IMG/VR virus record: IMGVR_UViG_3300032030_000077 | Strand: one strand, 5' to 3' | DNA from: an uncultured virus (IMG/VR IMGVR_UViG_3300032030_000077) | Taxonomy: Duplodnaviria; Heunggongvirae; Uroviricota; Caudoviricetes | Length of the DNA: 64,000 bases | Shown here: one piece after another, positions 47,128 through 63,215 of the stretch | Numbering within the stretch: the first letter of the stretch is position 1 | Layout of the letters: each line of letters begins with the position of its first letter | Position numbers and translations under genes: made by a program | The notes under the pieces: model-generated | Database searches by the model: none | What the model was told of the DNA's origin: nothing | Seen by the model: the letters and a program-made list of their open reading frames with translations, nothing else

Positions 47128-50100
47128 TTAGGAAATAGCATTAACAAGTTGTGAGAAACCGTTACGAGTCTGACGATAGATCTCAGTCCTGCTAAGTGCT
47201 TTAGGGCTATTGTTAGTCTGATTGAATGTGATTGACTTAGGCTCTGCATTCTGCTCAGCTATAATATTGCCAAGCTGAGTAATCATTTCTGCCTGCTGGT
47301 CATCGTTTCTAGCCTGAATAGCTATCTGACGACCATTAAACATGTTTGCAAGAGCTGCAGATCTAGCATTAACCTGAGACAAATCCAAAGTAGGAGTTAT
47401 GACAGGATTAATGTCTATACTGCCATCAAGCATTCCAGACAGCTGCTGAATAGCTTCTTGTACGGGAGATAATGTTCCTAAAGCCATTTCTCCTGAAGCA
47501 TCTTCAGCTAAACCTGAATAATTACGAAGACCTATTGCTAAGCCTTCATCGATGAATTTACCGATTTGCATGAACACTCTGGACGGCGATTTAATTTGCA
47601 GTTCGTCTCTTGCTGCTCTGGAAGCTCTAATAGCAACCGTTCTAGCAGCCTGTTCAACTCCGGCTATAGCGTTTTCTGAGCTGATTCCTCTTCCAATTCC
47701 TCTTGTGATCTGTTCACCGATAGAAAGCCACTGATGCTCAGCATTAACGGTCAATGCATAATTAATACCATAAATCAAGTCGTTAAAAGTATTTGTAAAT
47801 CCAGCGCCTCTTCTTTCAAGGTCTATTCCAGCACAAATCTGGTCAATAAATTTATGTCCTACTTCTTTAAACGAATCTATGGCATTGTCAAATATGTTTG
47901 TTATCGTTTCTATTACCAATCTAGCATTAGCTTCGACTCTTGCTATGGCGTCACGGTCAGACATACCGTTTGCTACTTCATTCACATAACCTGTTCCGGC
48001 CGACCTTGCTGATCCGCTATTGCTTATGCCATCAGAAGCACTATTAGCAATATTGGTTCCTGCTGTACGACCAAGTTCAGAAGTTGCAGAATCTGTAGAA
48101 ATACGGTTTGTCAAATCGCTCATACCGTTCTTGTAAGAAATATAAAATTCCTCAATGTCAAGAGGCTCTCCTAATGCTGCACTCAATTCAGCAGAGAGTT
48201 CATTCTTAAGAGCTTTTGCTTCCCTAGCAATTTTCTGATTATACATTTCTGTATAAGAGTCTAATTGTGCATCGGTCATGCTATTAAGCATCTTAAGCTC
48301 AGCCAGTGAATCTACACCCATGCTAGCAATGGCTTCTCTGAGGTTCATATCTGAAATACGATTCATCAAAGATCCAACTGTAGCGTTGTATTCGTTGAGC
48401 TGGTCGATCTGAGCCTGCAAATTCGTGATTAACTGGTTTGTAGATTCATTAGTCGCGACGTAACTTGCGATGTCTGTATACTCTCCAGTTATCTGAGATA
48501 TGCTTCCAGTCAATTCATTTTGAATTTTGTTCTGGTTGGCCTGAACTTTCTGTCTGTACATTTCCTGATAGCTCGACAGATCTCTATCATTCATCCTATA
48601 AAGCGCTCTAAGCTCGGGAAGTTTGTCGACATCCATCTGAGAAATGGCTGCTCTCAGGTTTTCATCGGTTACTCTTCCACTAAGCGACGCTACAATTGTA
48701 TTGAGCTCGTTGACCTGGTTAACCTGATCCTCGAGATTCTTCATTAATGTCTCAGGAGCAAAAGACTCATCTTCCATCTTAACTTCTGCAAAGAGATCCT
48801 GACTGTTCGTTCTCTCTACTGCAGACTGATAGATGTTCTCGTACTGATTCATTATGTCTTTGATAGTATCGAGGAAGTCATCGCCCTGAGAATCTACACC
48901 CTTGAATAAGTCTTTATTAGCATTTGTCTTGGCATCGTCCCACAGATCTTCATATTTCTCCATGAGACCGTCAATCTTCTGCATAAGTTCATCTGTTTGT
49001 CTAGATGCACTAGAAGCTGAAGAACCAACTCCACCCATAGATCCACCAAGATCGTCAAGAGATCCAGATGTCAAATCAGAGATGTTACCAAGATTAGACA
49101 ATGAATTCTCGAAATCTTTAAGAAGATCTGTAAATGTCGAACCATAATCAAGAATACCTTCATCGGTTTCCTGTAAGTTCTGGCTAGCCTGTTCTGCCTG
49201 GTATGCTAAATACTCTTCGGGGCTTCTAAAGTTCCTTATAAAGTTTTCTTCATAAGCTCTCTGCTGAGCAGTTGCAAGTCTGCCAGCATCAGCTCTTACT
49301 CTAGCAGTATCATACCAACCAGCTTTCTTACCGGTCTTACCTTTTCCGCCACCGCTAACCAAGTCAAATATTCCAGAGAGGTCAAGATTTCCACTTAAAC
49401 CAGCTTTGAAATTAGCAGCAAAACTTTCAGCGGAATTAGCTCCAGCATTACCGAATACACTTATTCCTTCAAGATTTACAAAATCACCCATTTGAGCTGT
49501 TGCGGATCTGAGTATGGATTCAGCACTGGCATTAGTCAAACCTGCACCGGCTCCAGCAACCATGTTTCCGCCCCATTCGTCTTCAGTTCTGGTCGAAGGT
49601 GAATGTATGCCCATTTCTTCTTTAAACTTATTATCAATTATAGCAGCCATACCGATAGCGCTGGTTTCAAGAATGGCTTTAGCATGCTCATTTATCAAAC
49701 CTTTAGCCAATCCAGCGACTATCTGTAAGCTTGCATAATTTGTAACAGCGTCTGCTATACGGAGAATGTCATTTGTTGCCTTAATAAACTCGTCAGCATT
49801 GAGACCACCAAGAATAGTTGACATGTTGAAAATATCAACAAGATCTGTCATCATCTTGGTCGCTGCTTCAAGACCGGCATCGATAGCAGATTTCATTGAT
49901 GCAATAGCAACAAGAGGCCCAACTGCCAGTAAAAGACCAGCATTTATTGCTCCGACTTTGACTACACCTAAAACATTAGCTCCAGCGAGCATGTTAAGTG
50001 CAGTTACAAATATAAGTATTCCTTCAAGCTTAATTCCTGTCATTATTTCAGTAATTCTTTTTATAGAATCGCATACAAATGTGATCAGACCTATTCCTGA

Positions 50101-53100
50101 AATAACTGCATTTTGAATTGTGGCAAATGAACCAACTATTCCAAAAAGTCCTAACAGAGAAATTACAGCTCCCTGGAGTATTGCAAGTCCGGCAATCGCA
50201 GGAATTCCTAACGCACCGACTGCTATAATCATCAACATAGTTACTGTTAGACTTCTCATGGACTGAGTAATTGCTTCCATGACAGTAACAGTATTCTCAA
50301 CATTACCAATTGCTCCAACTCCGGCTAAAAGAGCAGCAAAGCCTGCAATAGATGTCAAAAGTATTGCAAACATTGCGTTTCCGAGAAGGATCATCGGTCC
50401 AAGATTTCCTAAGAAACTCAATACTACAGAAAATACCAATAAGAATGGAAGTAAACCGTTCATTGCCTTGGTTAACGATTCCATTATGGTTACGGTATTG
50501 TCTACATTTCCTATTGTCCCTATGTATGCCATGAAAGCGCCGAACGACGCAACAAGTCCGAGCAGCATAGTAAATCCAGCAACACTTAGGAAGAACTCTT
50601 TATTGACATTTAAAACACTAAGTACTGACATGGTTATTAACAAGAATGGTAATAATCCGGTCATTGTTAAAACCATTCCTTGCATTATTGTCAAAGTGTC
50701 TGAAGGATCTCCTATTAACCCTATGAGAGACATGAGAAGACCAAACACACTTATTACACTAAGTAACGCAGAGAAAGCGCCAACACCTTTATAAATCTGG
50801 TCTGTAGCATTAATCTTACTGAGCAAGAATATAATTCCAGTGATAACGAACGATAAAGAACTCATCGCAACGACAATTCCGGTCAATGCATTTATCGAAT
50901 TTGTAGACCCAATTATTGCTGCTGATGACGCGAAAAATAACGACATGAAACCCAATACAGCTGTAATTCCACTAAAAGCCTTTATCGCGTTAGCAGGTAT
51001 TTGAGTAACCTTGCTTAACAAAACCAGTGTTTCGGCAACAACAATGGACAATACAGACATGCTCATAGCTATAGCAAGCAAAGCACCTTTATCAGCGACA
51101 GGTATCTTGCTAAGCGCAAATATGTCAGCAGTCAAGATAGCCAAAGTGTAAATCATGGCTTTAAGAGTATTGTCGTCAAGTTTTACAGGCTTTATATGAC
51201 TAAGCGAGTACGATAATGCAGTAAGTATAATGCCAATTGAAACTGCTGAACTAAGCACTGAATCCCACTGAACATTAGCGAGCACAGCAAGAGCACCGGT
51301 AAGGACGATTATAAGACTAACCATCTGGAGAATTGTCTTTCCATTTTGATTTTGCTTAAGTCCGAAACCGTTAAGCTTTTCTGCGGCGACAGCTATGGCT
51401 CCAAGAACTAATGCCATTCCACCTGCAGCAGCTACAGCTCTATATGGATCAAGAATTGTCATTATTGAGATCATCATTGTCATCGTAAAGATGAGCCCAA
51501 CAAGTCCTCTAAGTGACGATCCATTGGTTCCCTGAAGTGCTTTTATTGATGCATATATTCCAACAAACGAAGCTACTATAATACTTAATGTTTTAGCAAT
51601 GTCCTGCCATGAATACTTAGAAATTGTTTCCATGGTAGAACCATATGCTTTAAGCAATACAGCAACAGCCATGAGACTAAGTATTACACCCATGAGACCG
51701 CTCTGAGATGACTTATTGTAATACAAACCACCTTTTAAGCTTGCTGTAAATGTCTTATCAGCAGTGCCTAAAGTTCTTGTTATAAGCCATATTGCTCCTG
51801 CAAACAGAACTAATACCGATGCTGCTTTTGCCCAGCTTGAATAGAATGTATCAGCATCAAACTTGGCATATGCACTGATAATGTCTGTAAACTGATTAAG
51901 CACGATCAAGAATGCCATCATATCTACAGCACTTGCCATGAGCCCAAATCCAGCCTTCTTACATGCTGCGCCCATGATAGCAACTGATCCAGCCATAATA
52001 AGCATAGCCAGTCCGATTTCAGCAAATACAAACCATACAGAATTAGCATCGTCTTTGCTTCTGAAACGTCTGTTCATGTCAGCAAATGTTTCAACAACAG
52101 AAGCGAATCCTTTTAAAACAGCTGTAAATGCCAACATCACAACTGCAGCTCCGAGTAATCCTCCGCCAGCTTTCTTGCAAGTTGTACCGAGTATTGCCAC
52201 AGCAGCGATAATTGTAGCTAAAACAGCACCCATTCGATCAAAGCCGAGCCACATTTCTTCTTCAGGAATATTAGCCCAAGCTACAACAGCTTTATACAAA
52301 ATATAAATAGAACCAGCTATGCTCACAAGAAGAAGTGCAATACTTGTGAATAAAGATGCTCTTCCAATATTCTTTAAGAAAGACTGTATTCCTTTAGCTA
52401 CTCTTTCCATAGATCTGGAAAGTGAAGCCATAAACGAGGAAACAGCTTTCTCCCACGGTTTAACTTTATCTTTTGACTGGTTCATCGCAGTCACAGCGTT
52501 CATTATTCTCTGAATAGCAAAGCTTACTCCCATTATTGCAAGAGTAACTGCCATAAGAACACCTATTGTATTAAGTATTCTATCTGCAGGAACGAAGCTG
52601 AGAACAACAATTGCTGCTGCAAATATCAAGAACGCAGTAGCCATCTTCTTAATAGAACTTGCTGCAAGAGACAGAGCTTCGGCATTGTTCTTATTCGCCC
52701 AAGATGTTACTGCTCTAGAAATTGCAGAGCCAACTCTAAGCACATTGTATAAAACGCCAAAAGTAAGAAGTGACTCGATGATTGCGACTACCGATGTAAG
52801 TCCTAAGAACTTTGTCGATATGAACTCATAAACGGACATAAATGCATTCTTAATCCGTTCGCCAATATTTGCAAATATTTCTATGAGACCTGCACCAGTG
52901 CTCTTCATCTTATCGAAGACCGATGCCATGGTTTCTCTAAGATTTGTAAATGCTCTTGCTATTCCAACAAAGAACAACCCAATTGCTCCGAGGAACGACA
53001 GAATTGCTCTCTGAATAACAGGAAGCATTCCGCCAGTCAAGAATGTTCCGACGAGCTGTCTGAAAGCTCTTATCATCTCATAGACTCTGGAAAGATCGAT

Positions 53101-55155
53101 ATTCTTCAAACTTTCACCAAGAAGCTTAAATACTTCAGCAACTTCCCTTATGGCAAGTCCAACAAGGCCTATAATAATTCCAAGAACAGTTATTATAGCT
53201 CTTCCGGCATAAGTGAAAGTGGTAGTAAGGATTCTTACAACAGAGTCAAGAATCTTAGATTCAGCTATGAAATCGACTATATAAGCAATTATTTCTGCAA
53301 AAATAGAAACAAATGCAATAACTACATCAACCAATGGAGTAAAAGCTCCAACAATCTTAATTACTCCACCAGCTAATTTAGCGATTACACTAATTCCAGT
53401 TTTTACTATCTTAAAAAATGTCGTAAATATTTTTACAAGATTTCTCTGAGCAGGAACCGAAAGCTTAAGTTTCGAAGTAAAATCCGAAATAGCTTCAGTT
53501 ATTCCAACAACTCCCTGAACTCCGTTTCCTGTAAATACTTTTAAAAATGCTTCAATAGCAGGGCCAACAACTGAAGAAATACCATTACCAAGGTTAATTG
53601 CTACAGAAAGGACATTCTTTAAAATGTTGGCAAGCTGTGAAATTCTGGTTTCTGCAACAGTATTACCGAATGCAGCAGACATAGCGTTGGAAAACTGCTC
53701 AAATGAGATTTCGCCATTATGGCACATCATAACTATCTCATCTTCAGTCTTGTCCATAGACTCAGCAAGGTTCTTGTAAACCTTACCCATGTCATTTCCG
53801 CTATTATGCATAATCTGCGTAAGTACAGTTATTGCAGACTGTGAATTCCTTGCACCAGATTCAACATCATCAAATACCGATTTAATAAATCCAAAACTGC
53901 TTCCTGACAGTTGAGCAATTGCTGACATGGTCTGCTCTATAACATTCTGTCCACCATGCCAAACATTGAACAAATCATGAGCTTTTTCAGTTAATCTAGT
54001 AATAGCATTAACAAATAGCTCAACGATACTTGCTTCTTTTTCTACTCCAGGAAACTTTATTTTGAAATTTAACGCTTTTCTTACCTGGTTGATAGCTATT
54101 CTCACATCGTTAAGAATAGGAATCATCTTTTCTCTGAAAGGACCAATGAAATCCGCACCTATCTTAGACAGAGCGAACTTCATGTTACTAAATGCACCAG
54201 TGAAAGTGTTGTTAGCATCCTTAGCATGATCGCCATAAGTGGCATCCATAGCCTTTGCAAAAGTCATGAAGTCGATCTGACCTTTGGAAACCATGTCACG
54301 GATGTCTTTCTCTGTTGCATTGGCTGTAACACCAATATCATTCAGGTAATCTCTCAAAGTAGCTGCGGCATTAAGACCTCTAGCAGAAAGACTCTGCAGG
54401 TCTATTGCCATTACCCTACCATTACCAGAAATTCTCTCAAACACATGGGCGATATCGTCATAAGACGCATTAGCCATTGCCGCAGTACCAGAAATGGATC
54501 TCAATGCAACCTGCATTTCTGTTCTTAACAGACCGTTTGCATCTTTCAGATCTTCCGAGAAATGAAGAACATCGACACCTGAAGTAGCAAGAACTGATGC
54601 CGCTTTAGCAGCTGAGTCCAGTCCATAAGCAGTGTCTGCAACAGCATAATCAGCTGCATTCATTGCTACTATAAGGTCTTCAGACATTCCAACCATGTTT
54701 GCAATCTCCGAAGAAGATGCTCTCATGGTCATGTTAAGTTTAGCTATTCCTTCGTCAGTCTTACCAAACAGACCTTCCAACTGGAACTGAGCCTGAGCAA
54801 TATTGGCAGCTCTGTTGGTACCACCAGTAATGATCTGCTGCCAAGGTTTAGCTAAAACTCGCCCTAATTTACCAGCGAGATTCATTACTTCATTGGTAAT
54901 TCGCTGAATAGCAGTCATACCAACGATTCCAAAAGTCGAGAATCTATCAGACAAGCTTTCAAGACTTGATGTAATACCGGAAAGATCTATGTTTCTTGTG
55001 GCTCTTTCGAGAGAATCAAAGCTATTTGCATCAAACTGAAGGCTGTCTTTTAACTCATTTACAATATCTATGGTCTGGGAGACATTCTCTACAAACTTCG
55101 AGTTGTCAAATTTAATCTCTACCACATTAGTATCAATTACATCGTTCTCATTCAT
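47128..55155 (-). CDS. Tape measure protein
   Basis: 2675 aa, Ala/Gly/hydrophobic helical repeats, located upstream of Dit/Tal. Confidence 0.9.
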   Translation of the reverse strand: MNENDVIDTNVVEIKFDNSKFVENVSQTIDIVNELKDSLQFDANSFDSLERATRNIDLSGITSSLESLSDRFSTFGIVGMTAIQRITNEVMNLAGKLGRVLAKPWQQIITGGTNRAANIAQAQFQLEGLFGKTDEGIAKLNMTMRASSSEIANMVGMSEDLIVAMNAADYAVADTAYGLDSAAKAASVLATSGVDVLHFSEDLKDANGLLRTEMQVALRSISGTAAMANASYDDIAHVFERISGNGRVMAIDLQSLSARGLNAAATLRDYLNDIGVTANATEKDIRDMVSKGQIDFMTFAKAMDATYGDHAKDANNTFTGAFSNMKFALSKIGADFIGPFREKMIPILNDVRIAINQVRKALNFKIKFPGVEKEASIVELFVNAITRLTEKAHDLFNVWHGGQNVIEQTMSAIAQLSGSSFGFIKSVFDDVESGARNSQSAITVLTQIMHNSGNDMGKVYKNLAESMDKTEDEIVMMCHNGEISFEQFSNAMSAAFGNTVAETRISQLANILKNVLSVAINLGNGISSVVGPAIEAFLKVFTGNGVQGVVGITEAISDFTSKLKLSVPAQRNLVKIFTTFFKIVKTGISVIAKLAGGVIKIVGAFTPLVDVVIAFVSIFAEIIAYIVDFIAESKILDSVVRILTTTFTYAGRAIITVLGIIIGLVGLAIREVAEVFKLLGESLKNIDLSRVYEMIRAFRQLVGTFLTGGMLPVIQRAILSFLGAIGLFFVGIARAFTNLRETMASVFDKMKSTGAGLIEIFANIGERIKNAFMSVYEFISTKFLGLTSVVAIIESLLTFGVLYNVLRVGSAISRAVTSWANKNNAEALSLAASSIKKMATAFLIFAAAIVVLSFVPADRILNTIGVLMAVTLAIMGVSFAIQRIMNAVTAMNQSKDKVKPWEKAVSSFMASLSRSMERVAKGIQSFLKNIGRASLFTSIALLLVSIAGSIYILYKAVVAWANIPEEEMWLGFDRMGAVLATIIAAVAILGTTCKKAGGGLLGAAVVMLAFTAVLKGFASVVETFADMNRRFRSKDDANSVWFVFAEIGLAMLIMAGSVAIMGAACKKAGFGLMASAVDMMAFLIVLNQFTDIISAYAKFDADTFYSSWAKAASVLVLFAGAIWLITRTLGTADKTFTASLKGGLYYNKSSQSGLMGVILSLMAVAVLLKAYGSTMETISKYSWQDIAKTLSIIVASFVGIYASIKALQGTNGSSLRGLVGLIFTMTMMISIMTILDPYRAVAAAGGMALVLGAIAVAAEKLNGFGLKQNQNGKTILQMVSLIIVLTGALAVLANVQWDSVLSSAVSIGIILTALSYSLSHIKPVKLDDNTLKAMIYTLAILTADIFALSKIPVADKGALLAIAMSMSVLSIVVAETLVLLSKVTQIPANAIKAFSGITAVLGFMSLFFASSAAIIGSTNSINALTGIVVAMSSLSFVITGIIFLLSKINATDQIYKGVGAFSALLSVISVFGLLMSLIGLIGDPSDTLTIMQGMVLTMTGLLPFLLITMSVLSVLNVNKEFFLSVAGFTMLLGLVASFGAFMAYIGTIGNVDNTVTIMESLTKAMNGLLPFLLVFSVVLSFLGNLGPMILLGNAMFAILLTSIAGFAALLAGVGAIGNVENTVTVMEAITQSMRSLTVTMLMIIAVGALGIPAIAGLAILQGAVISLLGLFGIVGSFATIQNAVISGIGLITFVCDSIKRITEIMTGIKLEGILIFVTALNMLAGANVLGVVKVGAINAGLLLAVGPLVAIASMKSAIDAGLEAATKMMTDLVDIFNMSTILGGLNADEFIKATNDILRIADAVTNYASLQIVAGLAKGLINEHAKAILETSAIGMAAIIDNKFKEEMGIHSPSTRTEDEWGGNMVAGAGAGLTNASAESILRSATAQMGDFVNLEGISVFGNAGANSAESFAANFKAGLSGNLDLSGIFDLVSGGGKGKTGKKAGWYDTARVRADAGRLATAQQRAYEENFIRNFRSPEEYLAYQAEQASQNLQETDEGILDYGSTFTDLLKDFENSLSNLGNISDLTSGSLDDLGGSMGGVGSSASSASRQTDELMQKIDGLMEKYEDLWDDAKTNANKDLFKGVDSQGDDFLDTIKDIMNQYENIYQSAVERTNSQDLFAEVKMEDESFAPETLMKNLEDQVNQVNELNTIVASLSGRVTDENLRAAISQMDVDKLPELRALYRMNDRDLSSYQEMYRQKVQANQNKIQNELTGSISQITGEYTDIASYVATNESTNQLITNLQAQIDQLNEYNATVGSLMNRISDMNLREAIASMGVDSLAELKMLNSMTDAQLDSYTEMYNQKIAREAKALKNELSAELSAALGEPLDIEEFYISYKNGMSDLTNRISTDSATSELGRTAGTNIANSASDGISNSGSARSAGTGYVNEVANGMSDRDAIARVEANARLVIETITNIFDNAIDSFKEVGHKFIDQICAGIDLERRGAGFTNTFNDLIYGINYALTVNAEHQWLSIGEQITRGIGRGISSENAIAGVEQAARTVAIRASRAARDELQIKSPSRVFMQIGKFIDEGLAIGLRNYSGLAEDASGEMALGTLSPVQEAIQQLSGMLDGSIDINPVITPTLDLSQVNARSAALANMFNGRQIAIQARNDDQQAEMITQLGNIIAEQNAEPKSITFNQTNNSPKALSRTEIYRQTRNGFSQLVNAIS

Positions 55156-55538
55156 AGAGCTTCTATCTCCTTTCTCATATCTTCGGCTATCTGAACAAAT
55201 ACCGGTAACATAGCCGGAGTAATGTAGTCATTTGGAGGAACCCATACACCTGATCTGGTACCGTGGCCATAGTAAACAAGTAACGCCACGTTTTTACCAT
55301 TCTCTATGTCTGTGTTATAAAATATCAAACTGACAGAATTACGTGTTCTGCGTATCTTATAATGCCAAGATGACGCCAATAATCCCGTAACTTTAGGAGT
55401 TGTTTCAGCCAAAGCTGCAACTCCAAGCTTTCCGTAATAGTCCAGTCTACCTAACTTGATGAATTCCAAACATTTTTCAAGGAAAGAATTTGTTTTCTTG
55501 AAATCTCCTTTGAGACTGCATGTGATAGCTGAACTCAT
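55152..55538 (-). CDS. HK97 gp10-like tail/neck component
   Basis: TP..TG.LA.SW, A..V.YGH.T..G..V....YI.PA; start moved to MSSAIT. Confidence 0.7.
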   Translation of the reverse strand: MSSAITCSLKGDFKKTNSFLEKCLEFIKLGRLDYYGKLGVAALAETTPKVTGLLASSWHYKIRRTRNSVSLIFYNTDIENGKNVALLVYYGHGTRSGVWVPPNDYITPAMLPVFVQIAEDMRKEIEAL

Positions 55539-55548
55539 TTTGAATTTC

Positions 55549-56112
55549 CTAGCCTTTCGAGTTATACTTGGCTCTTCTTGCAGCATTCAAAGCCATGTTA
55601 CGTTGCATAATCTCACTTTTTCCCATCTTCTTAGGCGGTGTATTCTTAGCATTGCATACTTCGATAAGCCTAATGAGCCTGTTAAGATGCCATTTTTCGA
55701 ACTCACAAGGTATCTGAAGGGCTATCATCCAGTAATAGATAAGTTCTGAAGTTACAACCTCTTTGGGACCTGACTTTTGACCAGGAACTTCACGTATGGT
55801 TGTAGCAGTCATCGGATCGTTTATGTAATCAGAAATCTTTTTTATATCATCGGCTGTCAAATAGTTGTAAACGACATCAGGTACATTCTGGTTTATTGTC
55901 ATACACTTGATGTAGTGTATAGTCTGCTCTTCTGTATGCTGCTCTTTTGACATAAACGGAATATGCCACTTTGATTCCCATTTCGAAATCGATATTAGGG
56001 AATGCTCTAGATTAAGATCAATAGCTCTATTGCCAGGAATTTTGCGGAACTCCTCTTTCTTGGGGTCCCAATAGTCCTTTTCAGGATGCTCATCGATGTG
56101 AATCGTGATCAT
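55549..56112 (-). CDS. Putative tail assembly chaperone (second, GT-like part)
   Basis: EHSL.SISKWE.KW, TSELIYYWM and WHLNRL motifs; near the TMP; start at MITIH after AAAGGAG. Confidence 0.55.
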   Translation of the reverse strand: MITIHIDEHPEKDYWDPKKEEFRKIPGNRAIDLNLEHSLISISKWESKWHIPFMSKEQHTEEQTIHYIKCMTINQNVPDVVYNYLTADDIKKISDYINDPMTATTIREVPGQKSGPKEVVTSELIYYWMIALQIPCEFEKWHLNRLIRLIEVCNAKNTPPKKMGKSEIMQRNMALNAARRAKYNSKG

Positions 56113-56181: not shown

Positions 56182-58362
56182 TCAAGCCTTCTGAGCAGAC
56201 TCGATAACGATTGCACTGTAAGGAACAGTGAGAGCACCAGAGCATCTGGTCTCGATCAGATACTTCATCTGGTTGTAGTCGATGTCGAAATCATCGAACA
56301 TAGAAACTGCTCCGCCCTTATCAGCGCCTACAGTGTAGTCAGAAAGGTTAACAATGATACCGATAAGATCTCTCTGAACGTTACTTACAGTTCTCTGCTG
56401 TCCTTCCATTACCTGAACGGTAACGATGCGGCTTACACGCATAGCGGAAGCAACCTCAGCCTCGGACTTGTAAAGTCTGTGGCCCATGTTGTCCTCAAGA
56501 AGGAGCATATCTGTAAGAACATCTTCAGTGGTGAAGAATACAGGATTTCCTGATCCCTTGTAGTTCTTACGAGCCTTAACTGCTGCACGGATGTAAGCCC
56601 TAGCCTTGTCATCGTCAGTAGCGTCTGCTTCATACTCAACAAACTGCTTTATGGTGAAGAGATCGTCATCGGTCCAGATAGGTCTGATGTGATCATGCTT
56701 GATGTGATCGTTAGATGCGGTAGATCTTCCGTCACCGATAAGAATTGCTCTAGCGATTTCCTCGTCGAGCATCATTCTCATCTCGCCCTTGATCCATGCA
56801 ACTACGTCGAAATCGGTGATGTCGATAACATCATCACGATCCATCTTCTGCTTCTTATAGATGGTCTGAGGATCAGTGGATCTCTTGAGCAGAGTGAAGA
56901 CTTCCTCAGTCTTTCTCTGTCCCTTGAGGTAACCCTTAGCACGTGCTTCATCCTCAGTGATGTCTGCAAATACAGACTTAATGCGGCTGAAAGGAACATG
57001 CTTGGTTCCACCAAGTACTCCGGCAACCCAATCAGTGTTTCTCTTGATCCAAGCAGGAGGATTGTTGAGAGACTTTGCTTCAGGGAACAGGAATGAAGGA
57101 TCATTTACCATGTAAGCCTGAACATCCTCGGAACGCTCGATATCGGTTCCATGCTGAAGAACCATATCACTGATTCCCATCTCCTCTTTGTGAGCCAGGA
57201 AGGACTCCTTAAGAGATCCATACTTCTTCATGTCAGCGATGATGCTGTTCTGCTCGTCAAGAGTCATGCTGTGAGCAAGAACTGCGCCCTGGCTATCGTT
57301 GTCAAATACATTGTGCTTCATATCTTCTTCTCCTTTATCAGAATTTTCGTCAGCTTTCTTCAAAGCCTCGCTGACGCAGTAATTAAGAACTTTCTTCTGT
57401 TCTTCGTTCATGGTGTCGATAACATCCTGAACGGTCCTCTTACCTTCGCCGTCAGCATGCTCGAGATGTTCATTTTCCATATCGCTGTCCTCTTCTGAAT
57501 GTCTAATTCCAACTCCATTAAGCTGATTACTGGTTTGAGCTAATGCCGACTGAAGCTGATTATGCATATTTCTAGCCATCTGTGTAAGTCTTCCATCATC
57601 CCAAACAGCTCTTGAGTTTTTATAATCATTGAGATATCCAGTTCCATATCTCTTTATAAGATCTTTACACCAGTCGACGCTCATGGAATTAAATACAAAA
57701 TCGCCATTATTATTCCTATGATAACCCTCAAGAGTAGTATCAACAGGACTCTGATCTATAGTCCAACTGACATGTATCTTATCATCGTTCTTATTATAAG
57801 ATGCTCTAGGACTTTTAACATCAGAATTCAAAGGAAGATAATGCGTAGCTTTAATTCCTACAGCATGCTCGAGTGACTCATCGTCATTAGATTCGATGTC
57901 ATTAGACTCGATGTCATCATCGCTGAATATAACAGCTTCTTCCGGATCAATGCCGTCTTCACTGTGCGCTATTGCTGTATCAATGAATGCACCGGGATTT
58001 GCACCGGCCAGAACCAAAGACACCTCACGGATTATTCCATGAACAACATCGCTACCGTTCTGATGCTTAAGCTGATTTGCATATATGGAAAGAGACTTTA
58101 TGTCGCCATTATCGACGAGCTCTCTCGCATTCTTGCCCTGAGTTGTATCATTCAGGAAAATATCAGCATAAACGCCTTCGTCTTTGCAGTGAAGGAGAGC
58201 ATGACCGAGTACATTAAGAGGGGAATCATGCTTGTGATCCCACACGAGCGGAACGGTCTGTCCATCGCACTCATCAAATGCTCCGGGTTTTATAGTTCTT
58301 CCATCTGCACACTTGATGTTAAAGCGGGTAGCCCATCCACCAAAGTCTCTAGTCTTACCCAT
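56182..58362 (-). CDS. Prohead protease - scaffold - major capsid fusion (HK97-type)
   Basis: N-terminal protease PLVWDH, SLSI and EVSLV..GANP.A; C-terminal HK97-fold capsid (EE...AIL.GDG); internal RBS+ATG at 57480 and 57321. Confidence 0.85.
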   Translation of the reverse strand: MGKTRDFGGWATRFNIKCADGRTIKPGAFDECDGQTVPLVWDHKHDSPLNVLGHALLHCKDEGVYADIFLNDTTQGKNARELVDNGDIKSLSIYANQLKHQNGSDVVHGIIREVSLVLAGANPGAFIDTAIAHSEDGIDPEEAVIFSDDDIESNDIESNDDESLEHAVGIKATHYLPLNSDVKSPRASYNKNDDKIHVSWTIDQSPVDTTLEGYHRNNNGDFVFNSMSVDWCKDLIKRYGTGYLNDYKNSRAVWDDGRLTQMARNMHNQLQSALAQTSNQLNGVGIRHSEEDSDMENEHLEHADGEGKRTVQDVIDTMNEEQKKVLNYCVSEALKKADENSDKGEEDMKHNVFDNDSQGAVLAHSMTLDEQNSIIADMKKYGSLKESFLAHKEEMGISDMVLQHGTDIERSEDVQAYMVNDPSFLFPEAKSLNNPPAWIKRNTDWVAGVLGGTKHVPFSRIKSVFADITEDEARAKGYLKGQRKTEEVFTLLKRSTDPQTIYKKQKMDRDDVIDITDFDVVAWIKGEMRMMLDEEIARAILIGDGRSTASNDHIKHDHIRPIWTDDDLFTIKQFVEYEADATDDDKARAYIRAAVKARKNYKGSGNPVFFTTEDVLTDMLLLEDNMGHRLYKSEAEVASAMRVSRIVTVQVMEGQQRTVSNVQRDLIGIIVNLSDYTVGADKGGAVSMFDDFDIDYNQMKYLIETRCSGALTVPYSAIVIESAQKA

Positions 58363-58390: not shown

Positions 58391-59623
58391 CTATGACTCC
58401 ATAGATACGTCTATTTCTTCACTCTCGGCTTCTTCCAGAGCTTCTTTTGGCTGTGAAAGGTTGTTGTTGACCAACTGATCTGCCTGAGGATCGTCGACCG
58501 GCTTCATTCCAATTGCCTGTCTAATTTCATTAGAAGTTGCGATACAGTTCCTAGTAAGCTTATCTGCCAACTCTGCGAAATCAGCTATAGGCATAAGTTT
58601 GAACGGGTCTCTGAAGAACATTATTGACTGACCCTGAGTCATGGCTGTCTTAGTAAGAAATTTGCGTTTCATTTCATCAGTTATTGCTGAAACTATAGGT
58701 TCAATTGTCCTGGTATAATAGTTCTGCATGACTTTTTCGTCTGCGGTTCCATCCATTACTGCCTGAGTTATTCCAAGCTGGCTGTACAGCATGTTTGTGA
58801 AATACTCAACCTGTTCGATCATGTTGTTATCTATTGATCTATTAAGCTGGGTTATCTTTTCAGTTCCATCTGCGTATGCGATGCCATACTTGGAGCTGGA
58901 CAATTGCATCTCTATGTCTTTACGTCTTCTCTCGGCCTGCTGTCTTCTAGCCGGAGTTTTAATAATGTAAGGAAGCTGGATGATCATATCCAGTTTTCCA
59001 GTGGAATTATGCTCGTCAATTGTGTCCAATAAATTAAGCTTCCTTATAAGCCTTGAAGCCGTGGAACTTGGTTCATTCATTACTGAATAGAACGGGTTCT
59101 CTATAATGGCTACTGACTCTTTGGGAAGTGTTATCTCTTGCTCATGGCCTATTCGGTCGTTGTACACTTTTACACGAACGTAATCCGGATACCACTGCAC
59201 TATCTTGCCGACTCTCATTGAGAGAATATCAAAGGCACCTTTTCTAATGTCGGTATTCGTGTCTATCGGTACTATTGCTATGCATCCCTCGTCGAGAAGT
59301 GACATAACAACATCCTGAATAAACTGTCTTCCATTCTGGTCTTTGTTTGCAGATAGTGATAGGCAATTGTTGAAATCACTTTTGATTTCTTCTTTGTATC
59401 TTCCATCTTCGTCAGTTCTTACATGACGAATATTTATGGTTGAAGCATCTATAGCTATTCGATTATAGACAGCATTTATCATCGAACGCTCATTTCCTCT
59501 CGTGAATCTAACACGATCAGGTCTTGTATAATAAGCTTCACCATAATTCCTATAATCATAGTACGGGCCGTCTCTACCGAGAAAGGCGTTCCATCCATGA
59601 TGAAGTCTATCTTTTAAACTCAT
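58391..59623 (-). CDS. Portal protein
   Basis: 410 aa upstream of the protease-capsid gene; RIA.D, LL.EG, T.NEIR..IGM.P...AD.L motifs. Confidence 0.85.
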   Translation of the reverse strand: MSLKDRLHHGWNAFLGRDGPYYDYRNYGEAYYTRPDRVRFTRGNERSMINAVYNRIAIDASTINIRHVRTDEDGRYKEEIKSDFNNCLSLSANKDQNGRQFIQDVVMSLLDEGCIAIVPIDTNTDIRKGAFDILSMRVGKIVQWYPDYVRVKVYNDRIGHEQEITLPKESVAIIENPFYSVMNEPSSTASRLIRKLNLLDTIDEHNSTGKLDMIIQLPYIIKTPARRQQAERRRKDIEMQLSSSKYGIAYADGTEKITQLNRSIDNNMIEQVEYFTNMLYSQLGITQAVMDGTADEKVMQNYYTRTIEPIVSAITDEMKRKFLTKTAMTQGQSIMFFRDPFKLMPIADFAELADKLTRNCIATSNEIRQAIGMKPVDDPQADQLVNNNLSQPKEALEEAESEEIDVSMES

Positions 59624-59643: not shown

Positions 59644-61848
59644 TTATCTTCGACGAAGCTCTTCTCTAACAGCATCTACATAGCTACTTATTCTTTCATT
59701 GTCGGGAAGCGAAGCCATGTCAACATTGCTGACCTGACTTATGACAGGAGCTGCAGTACGCTGATACTTGATAGCATCTTCCTGATACTTATAGCTTCCG
59801 CCATAGTTTCCATAACCGATCTGAGCTTCAGCCTGAGCGGTATAATAGCCGTCTTTTAACTGACGTATCCTGTTATTGTAATAATCCTGAGAATCGAATT
59901 TACGTCCGGAATCGTTCTTTATTTCAGTAGCTATCTGGTTTTTAATAAAACCGTATGCTCCTGAACTTCTTGTTGAACTGAAACCTGCATCGTTAAGGGC
60001 TCTTTCAAGTAATCCCATACGATTGTTCTGGGTGGTGTTTCGTGCATTGTTATACGCGTCAGCAGTATCTTTCTTAATGTCTTTAACTCCACTTGAAACT
60101 GCATCCTGTACTTTACCTATAGTTTTAGCTATATCATCGGTCTTATCATTTGCAGTCTTCATAGCGTTAGACACTTTATCTGCTACGTCTTCACCTTTTT
60201 TAGAGTCTGCAGGTTTACCGGAATTGTTTTGCTGCCGATTCTGCTGATTATTAGGCTTTTGCGGTTGCTTCTGCTGATTCTGTTGCTGATTACCAGGTTT
60301 TTGCTGCTGATTGTTCTGCTGGTTATTATTGTTATTGCCACTTCCACCAGTAGCTAAGCTCTTGATGTACTCTGACAAATACTGTTTAACACCAGAAGAA
60401 ATTCCAGCAGGGATGTCCTCGATCAAATGATCTTTAAGATTGCTTATAAGCTGTTCACCTGCAGTCTTTGGCGGGGCAGGATTATTTTTAGCGTACTCTT
60501 CCTTGTAAAGTCTTTCGTTACGCATTCTTTCTGTAGCAATCTTAAGTTCTTCGTCTGTCATTTCAGAAGGCTTCTTATTTTCGTAAGACTTCTTCTGCTG
60601 ACCAGGATCATTAACATCCGTATCAGTATCTATTCGCTTTCCTTTATAGTCGTATGTACCATGCGATGTCTTAAATGTAGTCTTCTTATTAATCTTCTTA
60701 TTCTTACCTGTTCGGAGATTGTAACTTCTGATCATGTTTTTCATCTGATCTGGAGTTAATATATCTCCGTATCTTCTCCTACCTTCCTCAGTCAAAGAGC
60801 CGTCCGGGTTCTGAAACCGTCTAATGCCCCATTTCTGACCGAGAATACCATGATGCTCCAAATGTTCATCTTCATCCATTGCTGAATGTCTGGCAGATCT
60901 CAGATCTCTAATTTCAGCATTGAGTCTATCCCAATCAGACTGGGTCATCTCTGATGCTTTAATGTCTGACATGCCAAGGTTCTCAGCTGCTTCATTTACA
61001 TACCACCATGTATTATAATCATGACTTCCTTCAAAGTGGTCAACTATTTCTTTAGCTTTATCGACACTCTTTAAATCACTTTCCGTATATTTGTAGCCAC
61101 CATCATTAAATAAAACCAGATAAAATGCATCCGACTCCGGCTTATTTTTGGCTTCAAATTTATACATCATAGTTGTTGCTAAACTATTAGATAAATGGAA
61201 ATTCTTTTCGAGTTCGTCTGCGCCAACTTCTTCAAAAGCGTTAGACAATGTTTCTTTCAAAGAGTCTTTAGTAGACTTAAAAACATCATCGTATTTTGCT
61301 TCAAGCTCTCGCGCTTTTTCAGTCTTACCGTTTTCGTTAAGATAATACGATACGGCATTAACTGATTGCTGTTGACCATCTTCGAGACATCCCATAAATC
61401 CTTCGTTGCCAATGTCTTCAATTGTTAAATCTTCAGGATTCTTTTTATAATAAAGCGCGCTTGCTGCTATTTCAGTAGCTGCTTCATAGTAAGACATTGT
61501 TCCTTTATCTAAACCTTCAACCAATTCATCACATTCGTCAGATATGTCTTTTAATTTCTTAGTATACTCTTCACAGATATCATAAGATTTATTCTTAGCA
61601 TCAGAAGACGCACCAGTCATCCTGAACAGTTTTTCTACACCGCTCATATCGCTGTCATTCGCGTAAATACCTTCTAACGTCTTCTTTATTAAATCTTTCT
61701 GCAATTTGTTTGTCTTACGATATCTAAGCATACCTTCGGAAGTAAGGCTACCATCCCGATTCTGAAACCGTCTGATACCCCATTTCATACCGAGTATGCC
61801 ATGATGCTCCAAATAATCTGGAGACCTTTCGACGTAGTAATTGCTCAT
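59644..61848 (-). CDS. Putative internal virion (cargo/ejection) polyprotein with two HHG(I/V)LG.KWG.RR modules
   Basis: Start moved to MSNYY after AGGAG; the motif LEHHGILG(M/Q)KWGIRRFQN.DGSLT occurs twice; Q/N-rich linker. Confidence 0.7.
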   Translation of the reverse strand: MSNYYVERSPDYLEHHGILGMKWGIRRFQNRDGSLTSEGMLRYRKTNKLQKDLIKKTLEGIYANDSDMSGVEKLFRMTGASSDAKNKSYDICEEYTKKLKDISDECDELVEGLDKGTMSYYEAATEIAASALYYKKNPEDLTIEDIGNEGFMGCLEDGQQQSVNAVSYYLNENGKTEKARELEAKYDDVFKSTKDSLKETLSNAFEEVGADELEKNFHLSNSLATTMMYKFEAKNKPESDAFYLVLFNDGGYKYTESDLKSVDKAKEIVDHFEGSHDYNTWWYVNEAAENLGMSDIKASEMTQSDWDRLNAEIRDLRSARHSAMDEDEHLEHHGILGQKWGIRRFQNPDGSLTEEGRRRYGDILTPDQMKNMIRSYNLRTGKNKKINKKTTFKTSHGTYDYKGKRIDTDTDVNDPGQQKKSYENKKPSEMTDEELKIATERMRNERLYKEEYAKNNPAPPKTAGEQLISNLKDHLIEDIPAGISSGVKQYLSEYIKSLATGGSGNNNNNQQNNQQQKPGNQQQNQQKQPQKPNNQQNRQQNNSGKPADSKKGEDVADKVSNAMKTANDKTDDIAKTIGKVQDAVSSGVKDIKKDTADAYNNARNTTQNNRMGLLERALNDAGFSSTRSSGAYGFIKNQIATEIKNDSGRKFDSQDYYNNRIRQLKDGYYTAQAEAQIGYGNYGGSYKYQEDAIKYQRTAAPVISQVSNVDMASLPDNERISSYVDAVREELRRR

Positions 61849-61865
61849 TTTAGATCTCCTCTTTA

Positions 61866-61978
61866 TAAGAATCCCCATGCTGTAAGAAAATGCAGAAGCC
61901 ATGCCCACTGATGCCAAGGAAAGGAGACAAAGAATGGCGGCACAACTCCTGCACTCTCTTATAGCACAGGGATTCTTA
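61866..61978 (-). ncRNA. Long hairpin RNA with an anti-Shine-Dalgarno loop
   Basis: 40-position stem (61939-61978 with 61866-61905) with 8 G-U pairs and 1 mismatch on the minus strand; 18-nt loop UUCUUUGUCUCCUUUCCU. Confidence 0.75.
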
Positions 61979-61986
61979 AAATATCT

Positions 61987-62439
61987 TTACTTGGAAAGAG
62001 GATAGATCTTAGATGTAACCTCATCCAAGCTGCCGTCAGCTTTTGCCTTTTCGATAGCCTCAGCTGCATTTTCAGGTATTACTTTGTTAATAAACTCGGC
62101 AGCCGCTTCATGATTTGTTGCAAGCTCCATGAAAAGTACCGGATATGCAGCCGTCTGCTCGAATTCTTCGGAAAGCGGTCTTCCTGTCTGCGGATCTTTC
62201 TTATAGAACGATTTGCCATCAAGTGATCTCTCACCGTAAGCCATAAGGATCAGGCTCTTAAAGAGTTTAATAAGCTCCGGTGTGTTCTGGGCATTTGCAA
62301 TTCTGGTGATCCACTGATCGAATCCACCATCCTTTGAAAGTTCCATTTCCATAATCTCAGCATCGCTGAAATTGAAGTAGAAATCTTCCTTTCTCTTGTT
62401 TCCTGAGTAATCGGTATACTCAATCGTTTTAATGTACAT
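61987..62439 (-). CDS. Tail assembly chaperone (G-like)
   Basis: Directly after the major tail gene; KTI.YTDY.G..R.EDFYFN motif; start at MYIKT after AAAGGAG. Confidence 0.65.
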   Translation of the reverse strand: MYIKTIEYTDYSGNKRKEDFYFNFSDAEIMEMELSKDGGFDQWITRIANAQNTPELIKLFKSLILMAYGERSLDGKSFYKKDPQTGRPLSEEFEQTAAYPVLFMELATNHEAAAEFINKVIPENAAEAIEKAKADGSLDEVTSKIYPLSK

Positions 62440-62463
62440 AATTTTCTCCTTTCTAGACATAAC

Positions 62464-62491
62464 AAAAGGGGCCAGCGGTTAAGCCAGCCCC
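62464..62491 (-). terminator. Intrinsic terminator after the major tail gene
   Basis: GGGGCUGGC-UUAACC-GCUGGCCCC-UUUUG. Confidence 0.7.
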
Positions 62492-62510: not shown

Positions 62511-63215
62511 TTATGCAAGCATTGCAATAACTGCATCAGGAAGAGGAAGATAAGGATCTGTAGCAACAGACTGAGGATCCTCAGGATCTGCATCGGTTCC
62601 GAAGAGTGCATCCGTAAGTCTCTTAAGCTTAGCCTTTGCCTCTTCGGTTGTGAAAGCAGTGCTGTCAATAGTAAGCAGAGAGGTAGGCTTATAGACATTG
62701 TCAGAAGCATCTTTAGAAGTAAGGGTAACAGGAGTGGTTGTGAACTCCCAGCTGAACTCGATAGCATCAGGGCTATCATTGATGGTCTGATAATCTCTCT
62801 CTGAAGGAGATGCCATGCATCCGTATACAAGGTGAATCTTGTATCCATGATCGTTACCGTCGGTGTCGTTACCAAGAACGGTTCTGTAAGCAAGACCAAA
62901 GCTCTTTCTTGACTGCTGTCCGATAGTAAGTCCACCAACCTTAGCTTCGCCGTTGCAAAGTGCCCACTCATCGGGATACATGAATGCCTTGATTGTTCCC
63001 TTGAAGGTCTCTGCTGAATAAATGCTGAGATACTTAATGTTATCAGCATACTTGTCGTTAGGCTCTGCTCCTTCAGGAGTCTCGGTAACACCGGTAAGGC
63101 CATTCCAAGCTACTCCAAGAGGATAAGCTCCTCCAGACTGAAGATAAAGTACACCATGATCGATACCTGTCTCAAAGAGACGCTCGCCGATCTGATCCCA
63201 CTGTAAAGCGCTCAT
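62511..63215 (-). CDS. Major tail protein
   Basis: WD..GER.FETG.D.GVLY, AWNGLT.V.E, YADNIKY and FSWE.TTTP. Confidence 0.85.
   Translation of the reverse strand: MSALQWDQIGERLFETGIDHGVLYLQSGGAYPLGVAWNGLTGVTETPEGAEPNDKYADNIKYLSIYSAETFKGTIKAFMYPDEWALCNGEAKVGGLTIGQQSRKSFGLAYRTVLGNDTDGNDHGYKIHLVYGCMASPSERDYQTINDSPDAIEFSWEFTTTPVTLTSKDASDNVYKPTSLLTIDSTAFTTEEAKAKLKRLTDALFGTDADPEDPQSVATDPYLPLPDAVIAMLA

What the first reader, a model, noticed from the sequence alone, without database searches (positions are those of the whole stretch)
61866..61978. 40-bp RNA hairpin whose loop is a perfect 15-nt antisense to the polymerase's internal RBS
Seen: the stem has 8 G-U pairs and 1 mismatch on the minus strand (8 mismatches on plus), so it appears selected as RNA. 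Loop bases 61919-61933 (UCUUUGUCUCCUUUC) exactly complement 16271-16285 (GAAAGGAGACAAAGA). Shorter matches hit other AAAGGAGACA sites: 35155-35167 (13 nt), 39656-39666 (11 nt) and 56116-56125 (10 nt, the RBS of the second chaperone). Inference: a late, possibly RNase III-released sRNA that shuts off polymerase synthesis at the switch to packaging and/or tunes late genes.
Basis: partly seen in the sequence, partly recalled or inferred. Interest (0 to 1): 0.85.

Follow-up and report, generated by a model that had tools for sequence, protein, structure and literature searches.

The report
Phage RNA hairpin with anti-Shine-Dalgarno loop
A long, conserved RNA hairpin in a gut-phage late transcript displays a loop that is the exact complement of the phage's ribosome-binding sites; it belongs to a wider unannotated class of such hairpins and is probably a general, not polymerase-specific, regulator.

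Summary
The hairpin at 61866-61978 is real and is selected as sense-strand (minus) RNA. It folds at -64.3 kcal/mol against -44.0 for the plus strand. In 8 relatives, 16 of its 34 main-stem pairs show compensatory changes. A covarying 4-6 bp mini-stem presents a pyrimidine loop whose core GUCUCCUUUC is kept in 9 of 10 distinct relatives.

The 15-nt match to 16271-16285 exists, but it is not conserved. It falls to 14, 10 and 9 nt in three related complete genomes. Among sequences that look like ribosome-binding sites, a match this long is only marginally unusual (about 0.06).

The loop is a generic anti-Shine-Dalgarno (anti-SD) sequence. It is the complement of the phage's consensus ribosome-binding site (RBS), GAAAGGAGA.

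More distant relatives carry an equivalent long hairpin with a CUCCUUU loop. There it sits about 60 nt inside the genome's physical left end, ahead of the first late gene. It was found in 31 of 75 loci that were chosen without reference to the motif. No Rfam family matches.

The likeliest function is SD pairing by an RNA module embedded in, or processed from, the late transcript. The long stem would serve as a stability element or RNase III substrate. This function was not tested.

The polymerase's internal RBS is itself well supported: 69 of 75 homologues keep it.

The parts
61866..61978 (-). Whole hairpin: a 39-bp main stem interrupted by one mismatch, plus an apical mini-stem and loop.
   Evidence: fold; 34 main-stem pairs, 16 with both-side changes, 98.9% of cells paired, 0 of 500 shuffles reach this.
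61939..61978 (-). 5' arm of the main stem (purine-rich).
61866..61905 (-). 3' arm of the main stem (pyrimidine-rich, many G-U partners).
61913..61938 (-). Apical mini-stem GCCA/UGGC enclosing an 18-nt loop. The mini-stem covaries (CCG/CGG, UCG/CGA, GUCGC/GCGAC).
   Evidence: helix 4: 3 of 4 pairs with both-side changes.
61919..61928 (-). Invariant loop core GUCUCCUUUC, an anti-SD sequence. Its CUCCUUUC octamer is, from recall, the same as in the 3' tail of Firmicutes 16S rRNA.
   Evidence: Invariant in alignment A3. 9 of 10 distinct relatives keep it; L023 has UUCUCCUUUC. It is the only UCUCCUUU on the coding strand of the window.
61993..62010 (-). Last codons of the tail-chaperone (TAC) ORF. 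They are pyrimidine-rich and predicted to pair with the downstream SD at the base of the hairpin.
   Evidence: The 7 pairs are invariant, so there is no covariation support.
61846..61863 (-). SD (GAGGAG) and AUG of the downstream 734-aa DUF7211 gene.
   Evidence: Predicted P(unpaired) is 0.13-0.19 against a window median of 0.42.
61987..62439 (-). Upstream gene: tail assembly chaperone (Pfam Phage_TAC_17). The hairpin follows it in every member of this clade.
59644..61848 (-). Downstream gene: 734-aa DUF7211 protein, followed by the portal gene. In G007 the downstream gene is instead a DUF7253 gene.
16267..16285 (-). Internal SD (GAAAGGAGA) plus in-frame GUG at codon 611 of the 1355-aa primase-polymerase.

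Best explanation
The element is a structured RNA module carried on the sense strand of the phage's long late transcript. The phage is a siphophage of gut or rumen Clostridia that encodes a YonO-like RNA polymerase.

A rigid 40-50 bp helix, capped by a small covarying mini-stem, presents a single-stranded pyrimidine loop. The invariant core of that loop, (G/U)UCUCCUUUC, lies at the 3' edge of the loop. It is the exact complement of the family's consensus Shine-Dalgarno sequence GAAAGGAGA.

Each genome examined holds at most one copy. In this clade it lies just after the tail-chaperone gene. In more distant relatives it lies about 60 nt inside the physical left end, in the leader of the first late gene.

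Inferred mechanism: the loop base-pairs with SD sequences and so competes with the 16S rRNA tail for them. The targets would be start regions on the same transcript or on other phage or host mRNAs. The pairing would lower initiation and could create RNase III substrates. The long stem would give nuclease resistance and is itself a likely RNase III site that could release the apical hairpin.

Targeting is generic, through a 7-10 nt SD core, rather than specific to the polymerase.

Shown: the structure, the strand, the covariation, the loop invariance, the family distribution and the lack of target covariation.
Inferred: the pairing with SDs, the processing, and the direction of any regulation.
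For: - Sense-strand RNA selection: -64.3 against -44.0 kcal/mol. 16 of 34 main-stem pairs have both-side changes, and 0 of 500 shuffles reach the observed value.
- The loop core is invariant while the stems diverge completely in L023 and L024.
- The loop complement equals the RBS consensus. AAAGGAGA occurs 20 times on the coding strand, 10 of them preceded by G. The antisense UCUCCUUU occurs once.
- One copy per genome in the window, G002, G003 and G007.
- Flanks vary. The downstream gene is DUF7211, DUF7253 or phrog_4259. Upstream is the tail-chaperone gene or the genome end. A module that keeps its form in different contexts argues against gene-specific control.
- Same architecture in distant relatives. 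Of 75 distinct loci selected only by the left-end motif, 54 have CUCCUU within 230 nt, against a background of 0.03-0.05. In 31 it is unpaired and enclosed by 25 or more pairs. The 7th base is U in 23 of 23 distinct contexts. The sense strand is the more stable in 25 of 31.
- Some members carry two or three loops with CCUCC or ACCUCC.
- Precedents read as passages only: the icaR 3'UTR motif UCCCCUG pairs with an SD and recruits RNase III (PMC3868564). B. subtilis RNase III cuts long intramolecular duplexes (PMC11780869). YonO transcribes the SPbeta late genes as one operon that starts upstream of an unannotated non-coding RNA (PMC5467207).
Against: - No experimental RNA data exist. No target shows compensatory change with the loop. 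Flanks of the tail-chaperone SD, the downstream SD and the polymerase site do not covary.
- No orthologous start region ranks consistently high. The best mean rank is 11 among 41 groups shared by four genomes.
- A generic anti-SD would also hit the phage's own late genes, so the benefit is unclear.
- The base preceding CUCC in the loop (U, C, A or G) did not match the base following GGAG in the adjacent SD. This is my reading of the examples, not a count.
- G010 has no such hairpin at either position, so the element is dispensable in some relatives.
- Membership in the left-end class rests on minimum-free-energy folds, not on a curated alignment.
Confidence: 0.45

Rival explanations
1. A purely cis mRNA processing or stability element. 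The long duplex would be an RNase III site, a 3'-end protector for the tail-protein message or a 5' stabiliser for the downstream message. It would also gate translation of the next gene by holding its SD in a basal helix. On this reading the loop is conserved because a protein binds it or for folding reasons, not for SD pairing in trans.
For: - A near-perfect helix of 39 bp or more is a typical RNase III substrate (passages of PMC11780869).
- The SD of the next gene is predicted to be mostly paired. P(unpaired) is 0.00-0.53 in 9 relatives and below 0.3 in 7 of them, against a window median of 0.42.
- In L023, L024, G013 and G014 a pyrimidine tract 5' of the hairpin pairs with the SD across the hairpin.
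- Canonical terminators precede the hairpin in L023 and L024.
Against: - It does not explain the invariance of CUCCUUU across unrelated stems, or the multiple anti-SD loops in some members.
- In the window the SD is not unusually occluded: it ranks 11 of 82.
- In most close relatives the SD's predicted partner is the downstream coding sequence rather than the basal helix.
- The basal helix shows no covariation.
- There is only one such hairpin in 64 kb, so it is not a general processing scheme.
Confidence: 0.25
2. One reading: a late, processed small RNA whose loop specifically blocks the internal ribosome-binding site of the polymerase gene and shuts off the shorter polymerase product.
For: - A perfect 15-nt complement exists in the window, or 19 of 21 nt if the mini-stem is counted.
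- The polymerase site is the best predicted duplex among all start regions in the window (-32.6 kcal/mol) and in G002.
- The internal SD plus start is real and conserved in 69 of 75 homologues.
Against: - Complementarity shrinks to the SD core in G003 (10 nt, rank 7 of 87) and G007 (9 nt, rank 44 of 87), without compensatory change.
- The empirical chance of a match of 15 nt or more among RBS-like sites is about 0.06.
- One contig has the polymerase internal site (L121) but no hairpin after the chaperone gene (L077), none at the left end and no hit to covariance model R1.
- In contig 3300045988_075312 the loop reads ACUCCUUUU while the polymerase SD reads GAAAGGAGAA.
Confidence: 0.07
3. A transcription-level signal acting on RNA polymerase: a terminator or attenuator, or a put-like RNA that makes the polymerase read through later terminators.
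For: - It lies at the very start of the late gene block in distant relatives.
- Intrinsic terminators lie downstream, for example after the capsid gene at 56165-56134.
- The 3' arm ends in a U-rich stretch in the close relatives.
Against: - The terminator scan does not call it. The stem and loop are far outside terminator dimensions and there is no clean U-tract.
- Canonical terminators lie immediately upstream of it in L023 and L024.
- Nothing in this model explains an anti-SD loop.
- YonO-type polymerases lack the flap used for hairpin-dependent pausing, a discussion point in PMC5467207.
Confidence: 0.08
4. A DNA-level feature: a single-stranded DNA hairpin or cruciform used in replication priming or packaging, or a small plus-strand gene whose RBS and ATG lie in the loop.
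For: - In distant relatives it lies about 60 nt from the physical genome end. Sequencing adapters are attached directly to those ends.
- G-T pairs could also be tolerated in one DNA strand.
- On the plus strand the loop reads as a perfect RBS followed by ATG.
Against: - In this clade the element is 3.6-7.9 kb from the end.
- The plus-strand ATG is absent in L003, L006, L007, L023 and L024.
- Ten G-U pairs would be costly in DNA.
- The motif is meaningful as RNA, being the complement of the SD.
Confidence: 0.05

Closest known systems
C/U-rich anti-SD hairpin loops of Firmicutes regulatory RNAs (S. aureus RNAIII hairpins, RsaE, and the icaR 3'UTR UCCCCUG motif)
   Same: An unpaired pyrimidine motif complementary to the SD is displayed in an apical loop. 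It can sit inside an mRNA, as in icaR and RNAIII. The proposed outcome is a block of initiation plus RNase III cleavage (passages of PMC3868564).
   Different: The motif here is CUCCUUU, like the 16S tail, not UCCC. The stem is 40-50 bp, far longer than in those RNAs. The element is phage-encoded in a late operon. No specific target and no pairing have been shown.
RNase III processing hairpins in phage polycistronic mRNAs (T7 R sites, lambda sib and N leader, SP82 sites; recalled, not read here)
   Same: An intercistronic long duplex in a phage transcript. Cleavage could separate messages and change their stability or translation.
   Different: Those sites have no conserved loop sequence and occur several times per genome. 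Here there is one copy with an invariant anti-SD loop. Cleavage is untested.
5' SD-like mRNA stabilisers of Bacillus (cryIIIA STAB-SD, SP82 polypurine stabiliser; recalled)
   Same: A short element related to the SD:anti-SD interaction, placed in a leader and acting at the level of the whole transcript.
   Different: The polarity is opposite. Those elements are purine-rich and bind the 16S tail. This one imitates the 16S tail and would bind SDs.
HK022 put and other cis-acting antitermination RNAs (recalled)
   Same: A structured RNA at the start of a phage operon that acts without being tied to a particular gene.
   Different: put has two short stem-loops and no SD-related motif. No effect on polymerase is shown here.

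Membership tests
Any Rfam 15 family | Score at or above the family's gathering threshold. | tested here: not met
   No hit in the whole window. The only hit at E<=10 in 61700-62150 is MIR538 at 13.6 bits against a threshold of 100. No hit in 11 related loci, including left-end members.
Anti-SD loop regulatory RNAs (RNAIII / RsaE / icaR 3'UTR type) | An unpaired pyrimidine motif complementary to the SD in an apical loop. | tested here: met
Anti-SD loop regulatory RNAs (RNAIII / RsaE / icaR 3'UTR type) | Pairing with a defined target SD, supported by compensatory change or experiment. | tested here: inconclusive
   Only the 7-10 nt SD core is complementary. There is no covariation with the tail-chaperone SD, the downstream SD or the polymerase site.
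Anti-SD loop regulatory RNAs (RNAIII / RsaE / icaR 3'UTR type) | Repression of translation or RNase III-dependent decay of the target. | not testable with these tools
   Needs toeprinting, reporters and an rnc mutant.
Phage RNase III processing sites | An intramolecular duplex of about 20 bp or more in the sense transcript, between cistrons. | tested here: met
Phage RNase III processing sites | Staggered cleavage leaving 2-nt 3' overhangs, in vivo or in vitro. | not testable with these tools
   No raw RNA reads were available; contigs only.
Intrinsic (Rho-independent) terminator | A short G+C-rich stem with a loop of 3-8 nt, followed by a U-tract. | tested here: not met
   The scan does not report it, although it finds terminators at 62491-62468 and 56165-56134. 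The stem has 39+ bp, the loop 18 nt.
Type I toxin-antitoxin or small plus-strand ORF | A conserved small ORF with start codon on the opposite strand. | tested here: not met
   The ATG at 61934 is absent in L003, L006, L007, L023 and L024.
Programmed read-through or bypass joining the chaperone gene to the next gene | An in-frame, stop-free spacer conserved among relatives. | tested here: not met
   The spacer is open and in frame in only 2 of 10 (the window and L020).

The most novel reading that the evidence does not exclude
The hairpin, and its many counterparts at the left end of related phage genomes, is a phage-made mimic of the 16S rRNA 3' tail. It would be an abundant RNA derived from the late transcript, possibly released by RNase III, whose CUCCUUU loop or loops soak up Shine-Dalgarno sequences. 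It would then act as a global translational switch late in infection, shutting off host and/or early phage messages, including the internal polymerase start. That would make it an RNA counterpart of the T4 RegA/RegB proteins. If so, it is a new class of viral riboregulator, widespread in gut Clostridia phages that carry a YonO-like RNA polymerase.
Probability: 0.2. Interest if true: 0.85.

Novelty: new variant of a known kind. Interest (0 to 1): 0.62.

Why it matters
If the loop does pair with Shine-Dalgarno sequences, this is a phage-encoded RNA that competes with the ribosome's own anti-SD tail. It would be built into the late transcript of a large, uncultured group of gut and rumen phages.

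The class now has 10 distinct members after the tail-chaperone gene and at least 31 near the genome end. It has strong structural conservation, a 7-nt invariant motif and no Rfam entry. That makes it a ready candidate for a new RNA family and for simple tests: gel shift, toeprint and RNase III cleavage.

The work also gives a clean case of a conserved internal translation start in a primase-polymerase gene. In addition, it maps the physical ends of these genomes.

Tried and rejected
- RNA evidence. One search found two sheep-gut metatranscriptome runs, X1 and X2, kept as contigs. When laid on 59600-63200, no RNA contig covered 61653-62046 and depth was 2-8. Nothing can be concluded about expression, ends or processing.
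- Plus-strand 23-aa ORF starting at ATG 61934: not conserved.
- Read-through fusion of the chaperone gene to the 734-aa gene. The 46 intervening codons are open and in frame in the window. This holds in only 2 of 10 relatives.
- Ribosomal bypass from AAG to AAG: the landing frame meets a stop in L003 (reading).
- Sigma-70 promoter inside the hairpin: none reported there. The candidate -35 region is not conserved.
- Specific target search. Duplex energies of the loop against all start regions in four genomes gave no orthologue that ranks consistently high.
- Loop against the tail-chaperone SD: 8-9 nt in 10 of 10 relatives, but the flanks do not covary.
- DNA search of GenBank phages with 61500-62500: no match.
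- Relatives of the 734-aa protein: only one near-identical locus.
- Pattern scans for more members of the window's type. One gave 5 stretches, 2 of which were L023 and L024 again and 3 chance hits. The other gave 116+ stretches, 80 loci were fetched, and only G003 again was a true R1 hit.
- Metagenome scan with the chaperone protein: 2 close loci, one identical to L017 in this region.
- 78 bacterial-genome loci with chaperone relatives of 60% identity or less: none has CTCCTT within 200 nt downstream.
- L112 and L113 records are not held, so loop and polymerase site could not be paired for the L017-type phage.
- Literature. Searches returned no paper describing this element. I saw listings only, except for passages of PMC3868564, PMC11780869 and PMC5467207.

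Full report
**Setting.** The window is almost the whole genome of a siphophage whose genes all lie on the minus strand.
- Annotated genes:
  - major tail protein 62511..63215
  - tail assembly chaperone, Pfam Phage_TAC_17, 61987..62439
  - 734-aa DUF7211 protein 59644..61848
  - portal 58391..59623
  - protease-capsid fusion 56182..58362
  - tape measure 47128..55155
  - large terminase 30625..32382
  - 1355-aa primase-polymerase 14032..18099
  - YonO-like RNA polymerase with HTH domains 678..3602
- A near-identical virus record, G001, holds the hairpin region at 100% identity.
- Chaperone relatives occur mostly in Clostridia assemblies: Lachnospiraceae, Oscillospiraceae, Ruminococcus and others.

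**The observation.**
- The 136-nt gap between the chaperone stop (61989-61987) and the next AUG (61848) holds one hairpin, 61978..61866. It has 47 predicted pairs, 10 of them G-U, at -64.3 kcal/mol (z -7.2). The plus strand gives -44.0 kcal/mol.
- It is the longest inverted repeat in the window.
- The 15-mer GAAAGGAGACAAAGA occurs exactly twice, at 61919-61933 (plus) and 16271-16285 (minus).

**It is a selected RNA.**
- Chaperone-based searches gave 9 viral loci (L016-L024) and 2 metagenome loci (L112, L113) that carry the hairpin, 10 distinct sequences in all.
- In the alignment of the 8 closest, 16 of the 34 main-stem pairs have changes on both sides. 98.9% of cells are paired. 0 of 500 shuffles reach the observed values, and sliding the partner columns drops pairing to 40-54%.
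- L023 and L024 (76% and 61% chaperone identity) have unrelated stem sequences but the same architecture.
- A 4-6 bp mini-stem under the loop covaries: CCA/UGG, CCG/CGG, UCG/CGA, GUCGC/GCGAC.
- The loop core GUCUCCUUUC is unchanged in 9 of 10 sequences; L023 has UUCUCCUUUC.
- The plus-strand ORF that the loop would start is not conserved.
- Covariance model R1 finds exactly one copy in each of the window, G002, G003 and G007.
- No Rfam family matches.

**What the loop is.**
- AAAGGAGA occurs 20 times on the coding strand, almost always 5-9 nt before a start codon. Ten of these are preceded by G.
- The antisense UCUCCUUU occurs once on that strand, in the loop.
- So the loop is the complement of the phage's consensus RBS. 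From recall, its CUCCUUUC octamer is the same as in the 3' tail of Firmicutes 16S rRNA.

**The polymerase link.**
- The internal site is real. At the aligned position, 69 of 75 polymerase homologues (42 distinct sequences) have an SD followed by an in-frame ATG, GTG or TTG, with 8-nt spacing in 51. Only 1.2% of other in-frame codons in these fragments look like that. The SD is kept even where the amino acids differ.
- The extended complementarity to the hairpin loop is not conserved. It is 15 nt in the window, 14 nt with one wobble in G002 (same loop), 10 nt in G003 and 9 nt in G007. The loop flank changed without a matching change in the site.
- By duplex energy the site ranks 1 of 89, 1 of 95, 7 of 87 and 44 of 87 in those four genomes.
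- Among 2145 pairs of AAGGAG sites in the window, 2 share 15 nt or more. The match is therefore about a 0.06 event for a sequence that looks like an RBS.
- No orthologous annotated start region is a consistent top target; the best mean rank is 11.
- The chaperone gene's own SD matches the loop over 8-9 nt in 10 of 10 sequences, again without flank covariation.

**Context in this clade.**
- In the other 70 chaperone loci that could be examined (60% identity or less), the chaperone gene is followed directly by another gene, and CTCCTT does not occur within 260 nt.
- In the 12 of these that I compared with the window's proteins, that next gene is the homologue of window 55549..56112, followed by the homologue of 55152..55538.
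- In the hairpin-bearing genomes this adjacency is broken. The hairpin sits at the breakpoint, with different downstream genes: DUF7211 in the window, G002, G003 and L023, and DUF7253 in G007.
- In L023 and L024 a canonical terminator follows the chaperone gene, and its U-tract forms the 5' base of the long stem, opposite the next gene's SD.
- In the close relatives the last chaperone codons are predicted to pair with that SD. These 7 pairs never vary.
- The ensemble more often pairs the SD with a GGUCUCC in the downstream coding region.
- The window's SD is only moderately occluded, ranking 11 of 82. SD locking by the hairpin base is therefore plausible but not established.

**A wider class.**
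- Five complete relatives lack the hairpin after the chaperone gene (G010-G014). In them the coding-strand motif UCUCCUUUC occurs only 1-2 times per genome, against 7-26 for its complement.
- In G013 and G014 one of these copies lies in the apical loop of another hairpin of about 40 bp with a mini-stem. In G012 the copy at this position is cut off by the contig end. G011 has a copy at the corresponding place (62610), but I did not fetch it.
- These hairpins are more stable as sense RNA: -85 against -67, and -80 against -65 kcal/mol.
- They lie about 60 nt from the record start, after the RNA polymerase gene block on the other end. They precede the first late gene (phrog_4259), which is followed by an HNH endonuclease.
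- Record ends carry sequencing-adapter remnants and share conserved end motifs in G001, G002, G003, G010, G013 and G014. They are therefore physical genome ends. Window position 1 is the right end.
- To avoid selecting on the anti-SD motif, I fetched loci by the left-end motif alone. Results for the 75 distinct loci:
  - 54 have CUCCUU within 230 nt downstream, against an expected 0.03-0.05.
  - In 31 it is unpaired and enclosed by 25 or more pairs.
  - The next base is U in all 23 distinct contexts, followed by C in 15.
  - The sense strand is the more stable in 25 of 31.
- The motif sits at the 3' edge of the loop. Some members have two or three loops with CCUCC or ACCUCC.
- Window-type genomes have no hairpin in their left-end leader; the first ORF starts at base 63 of G001.
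- G010 has none at either place.
- R1 does not detect the left-end hairpins. Common descent with the window's hairpin is therefore not shown, only common design.

**Interpretation.**
- The firm result is an autonomous sense-strand RNA module: long helix, mini-stem and invariant anti-SD loop. It is present at most once per genome and is independent of its neighbouring genes.
- That pattern argues for action through the loop on SD sequences, or on something that recognises the 16S tail sequence, rather than control of one gene.
- Known parallels are the pyrimidine loops of Firmicutes regulatory RNAs and the icaR 3'UTR, which pair with SDs and recruit RNase III.
- The helix is in the size range cut by B. 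subtilis RNase III.
- YonO-type polymerases make one long late transcript. In SPbeta it starts upstream of an unannotated non-coding RNA. Post-transcriptional control is therefore expected.
- I put the SD-pairing module at 0.45, a purely cis processing or stability element at 0.25, a transcription signal at 0.08, polymerase-specific shut-off at 0.07 and a DNA-level role at 0.05.

**Limits.**
- There are no usable RNA reads.
- Membership of the left-end class rests on minimum-free-energy folds.
- The host is unknown.
- Statements about the 16S tail, T7, lambda, SP82, put and STAB-SD are recalled, not read here.

Noticed in passing
window 16267-16285 (minus), and loci L118-L190, G002, G003, G007: The primase-polymerase gene carries a conserved internal SD plus an in-frame GTG, ATG or TTG at codon 611. 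69 of 75 homologues keep it, with 8-nt spacing in 51. The SD is kept even where the encoded residues differ. This implies a second product of about 745 aa holding the polymerase half.
   Followed up: yes
window 1 and G001 1-70; ends of G002, G003, G010, G013, G014: Record ends are homologous. The left end starts CTT...TTCTCCGG and the right end is a G-run/C-run hairpin. Two records carry sequencing-adapter remnants at these ends. They are therefore physical (cos-type) genome ends. Window base 1 is the right end, and the full genome is about 65.5 kb.
   Followed up: partly
window 55152-63215 compared with G007, G013, G014 and L010-L092: Structural-gene order is heavily rearranged between relatives. 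Here the head genes (DUF7211 protein, portal, capsid) sit between the tail chaperone and its usual neighbour (55549..56112). G007 has a third arrangement.
   Followed up: partly
window 62468-62491 and 56134-56165 (minus): Canonical intrinsic terminators lie right after the major tail protein gene and after the protease-capsid gene. This fits boosted expression of the two most abundant virion proteins.
   Followed up: no
window 678-3602 (minus): A YonO-like single-chain RNA polymerase (phrog_4291) with HTH / sigma region 4-like domains at both ends. It is the last large gene before the right genome end.
   Followed up: no
window 35155-35167 (minus), in the 149-nt gap 35070-35218: A strong SD-like sequence (AGGAAAGGAGACA) with no start codon at normal spacing, in an intergenic gap. 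It could be a 5' stabiliser or the start of an unusual small ORF.
   Followed up: partly
window 4545-4720: A cluster of long T-runs and A-runs forming many overlapping inverted repeats. The G001 record ends beside it. It may be a replication origin or promoter region, or an assembly breakpoint.
   Followed up: no
window 60848-61798 (734-aa gene): A related contig in run X4 skips 951 nt inside the DUF7211 gene, and G002's homologue is much shorter. The middle of this protein is a variable insert.
   Followed up: no
window 19249-22944 (minus): Three consecutive paralogous DUF6353 / phrog_2152 genes.
   Followed up: no
window 61846-61989: The chaperone stop codon is in frame with the next AUG, and the 46 codons between are stop-free in the window and in L020 only. 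This is probably chance.
   Followed up: yes
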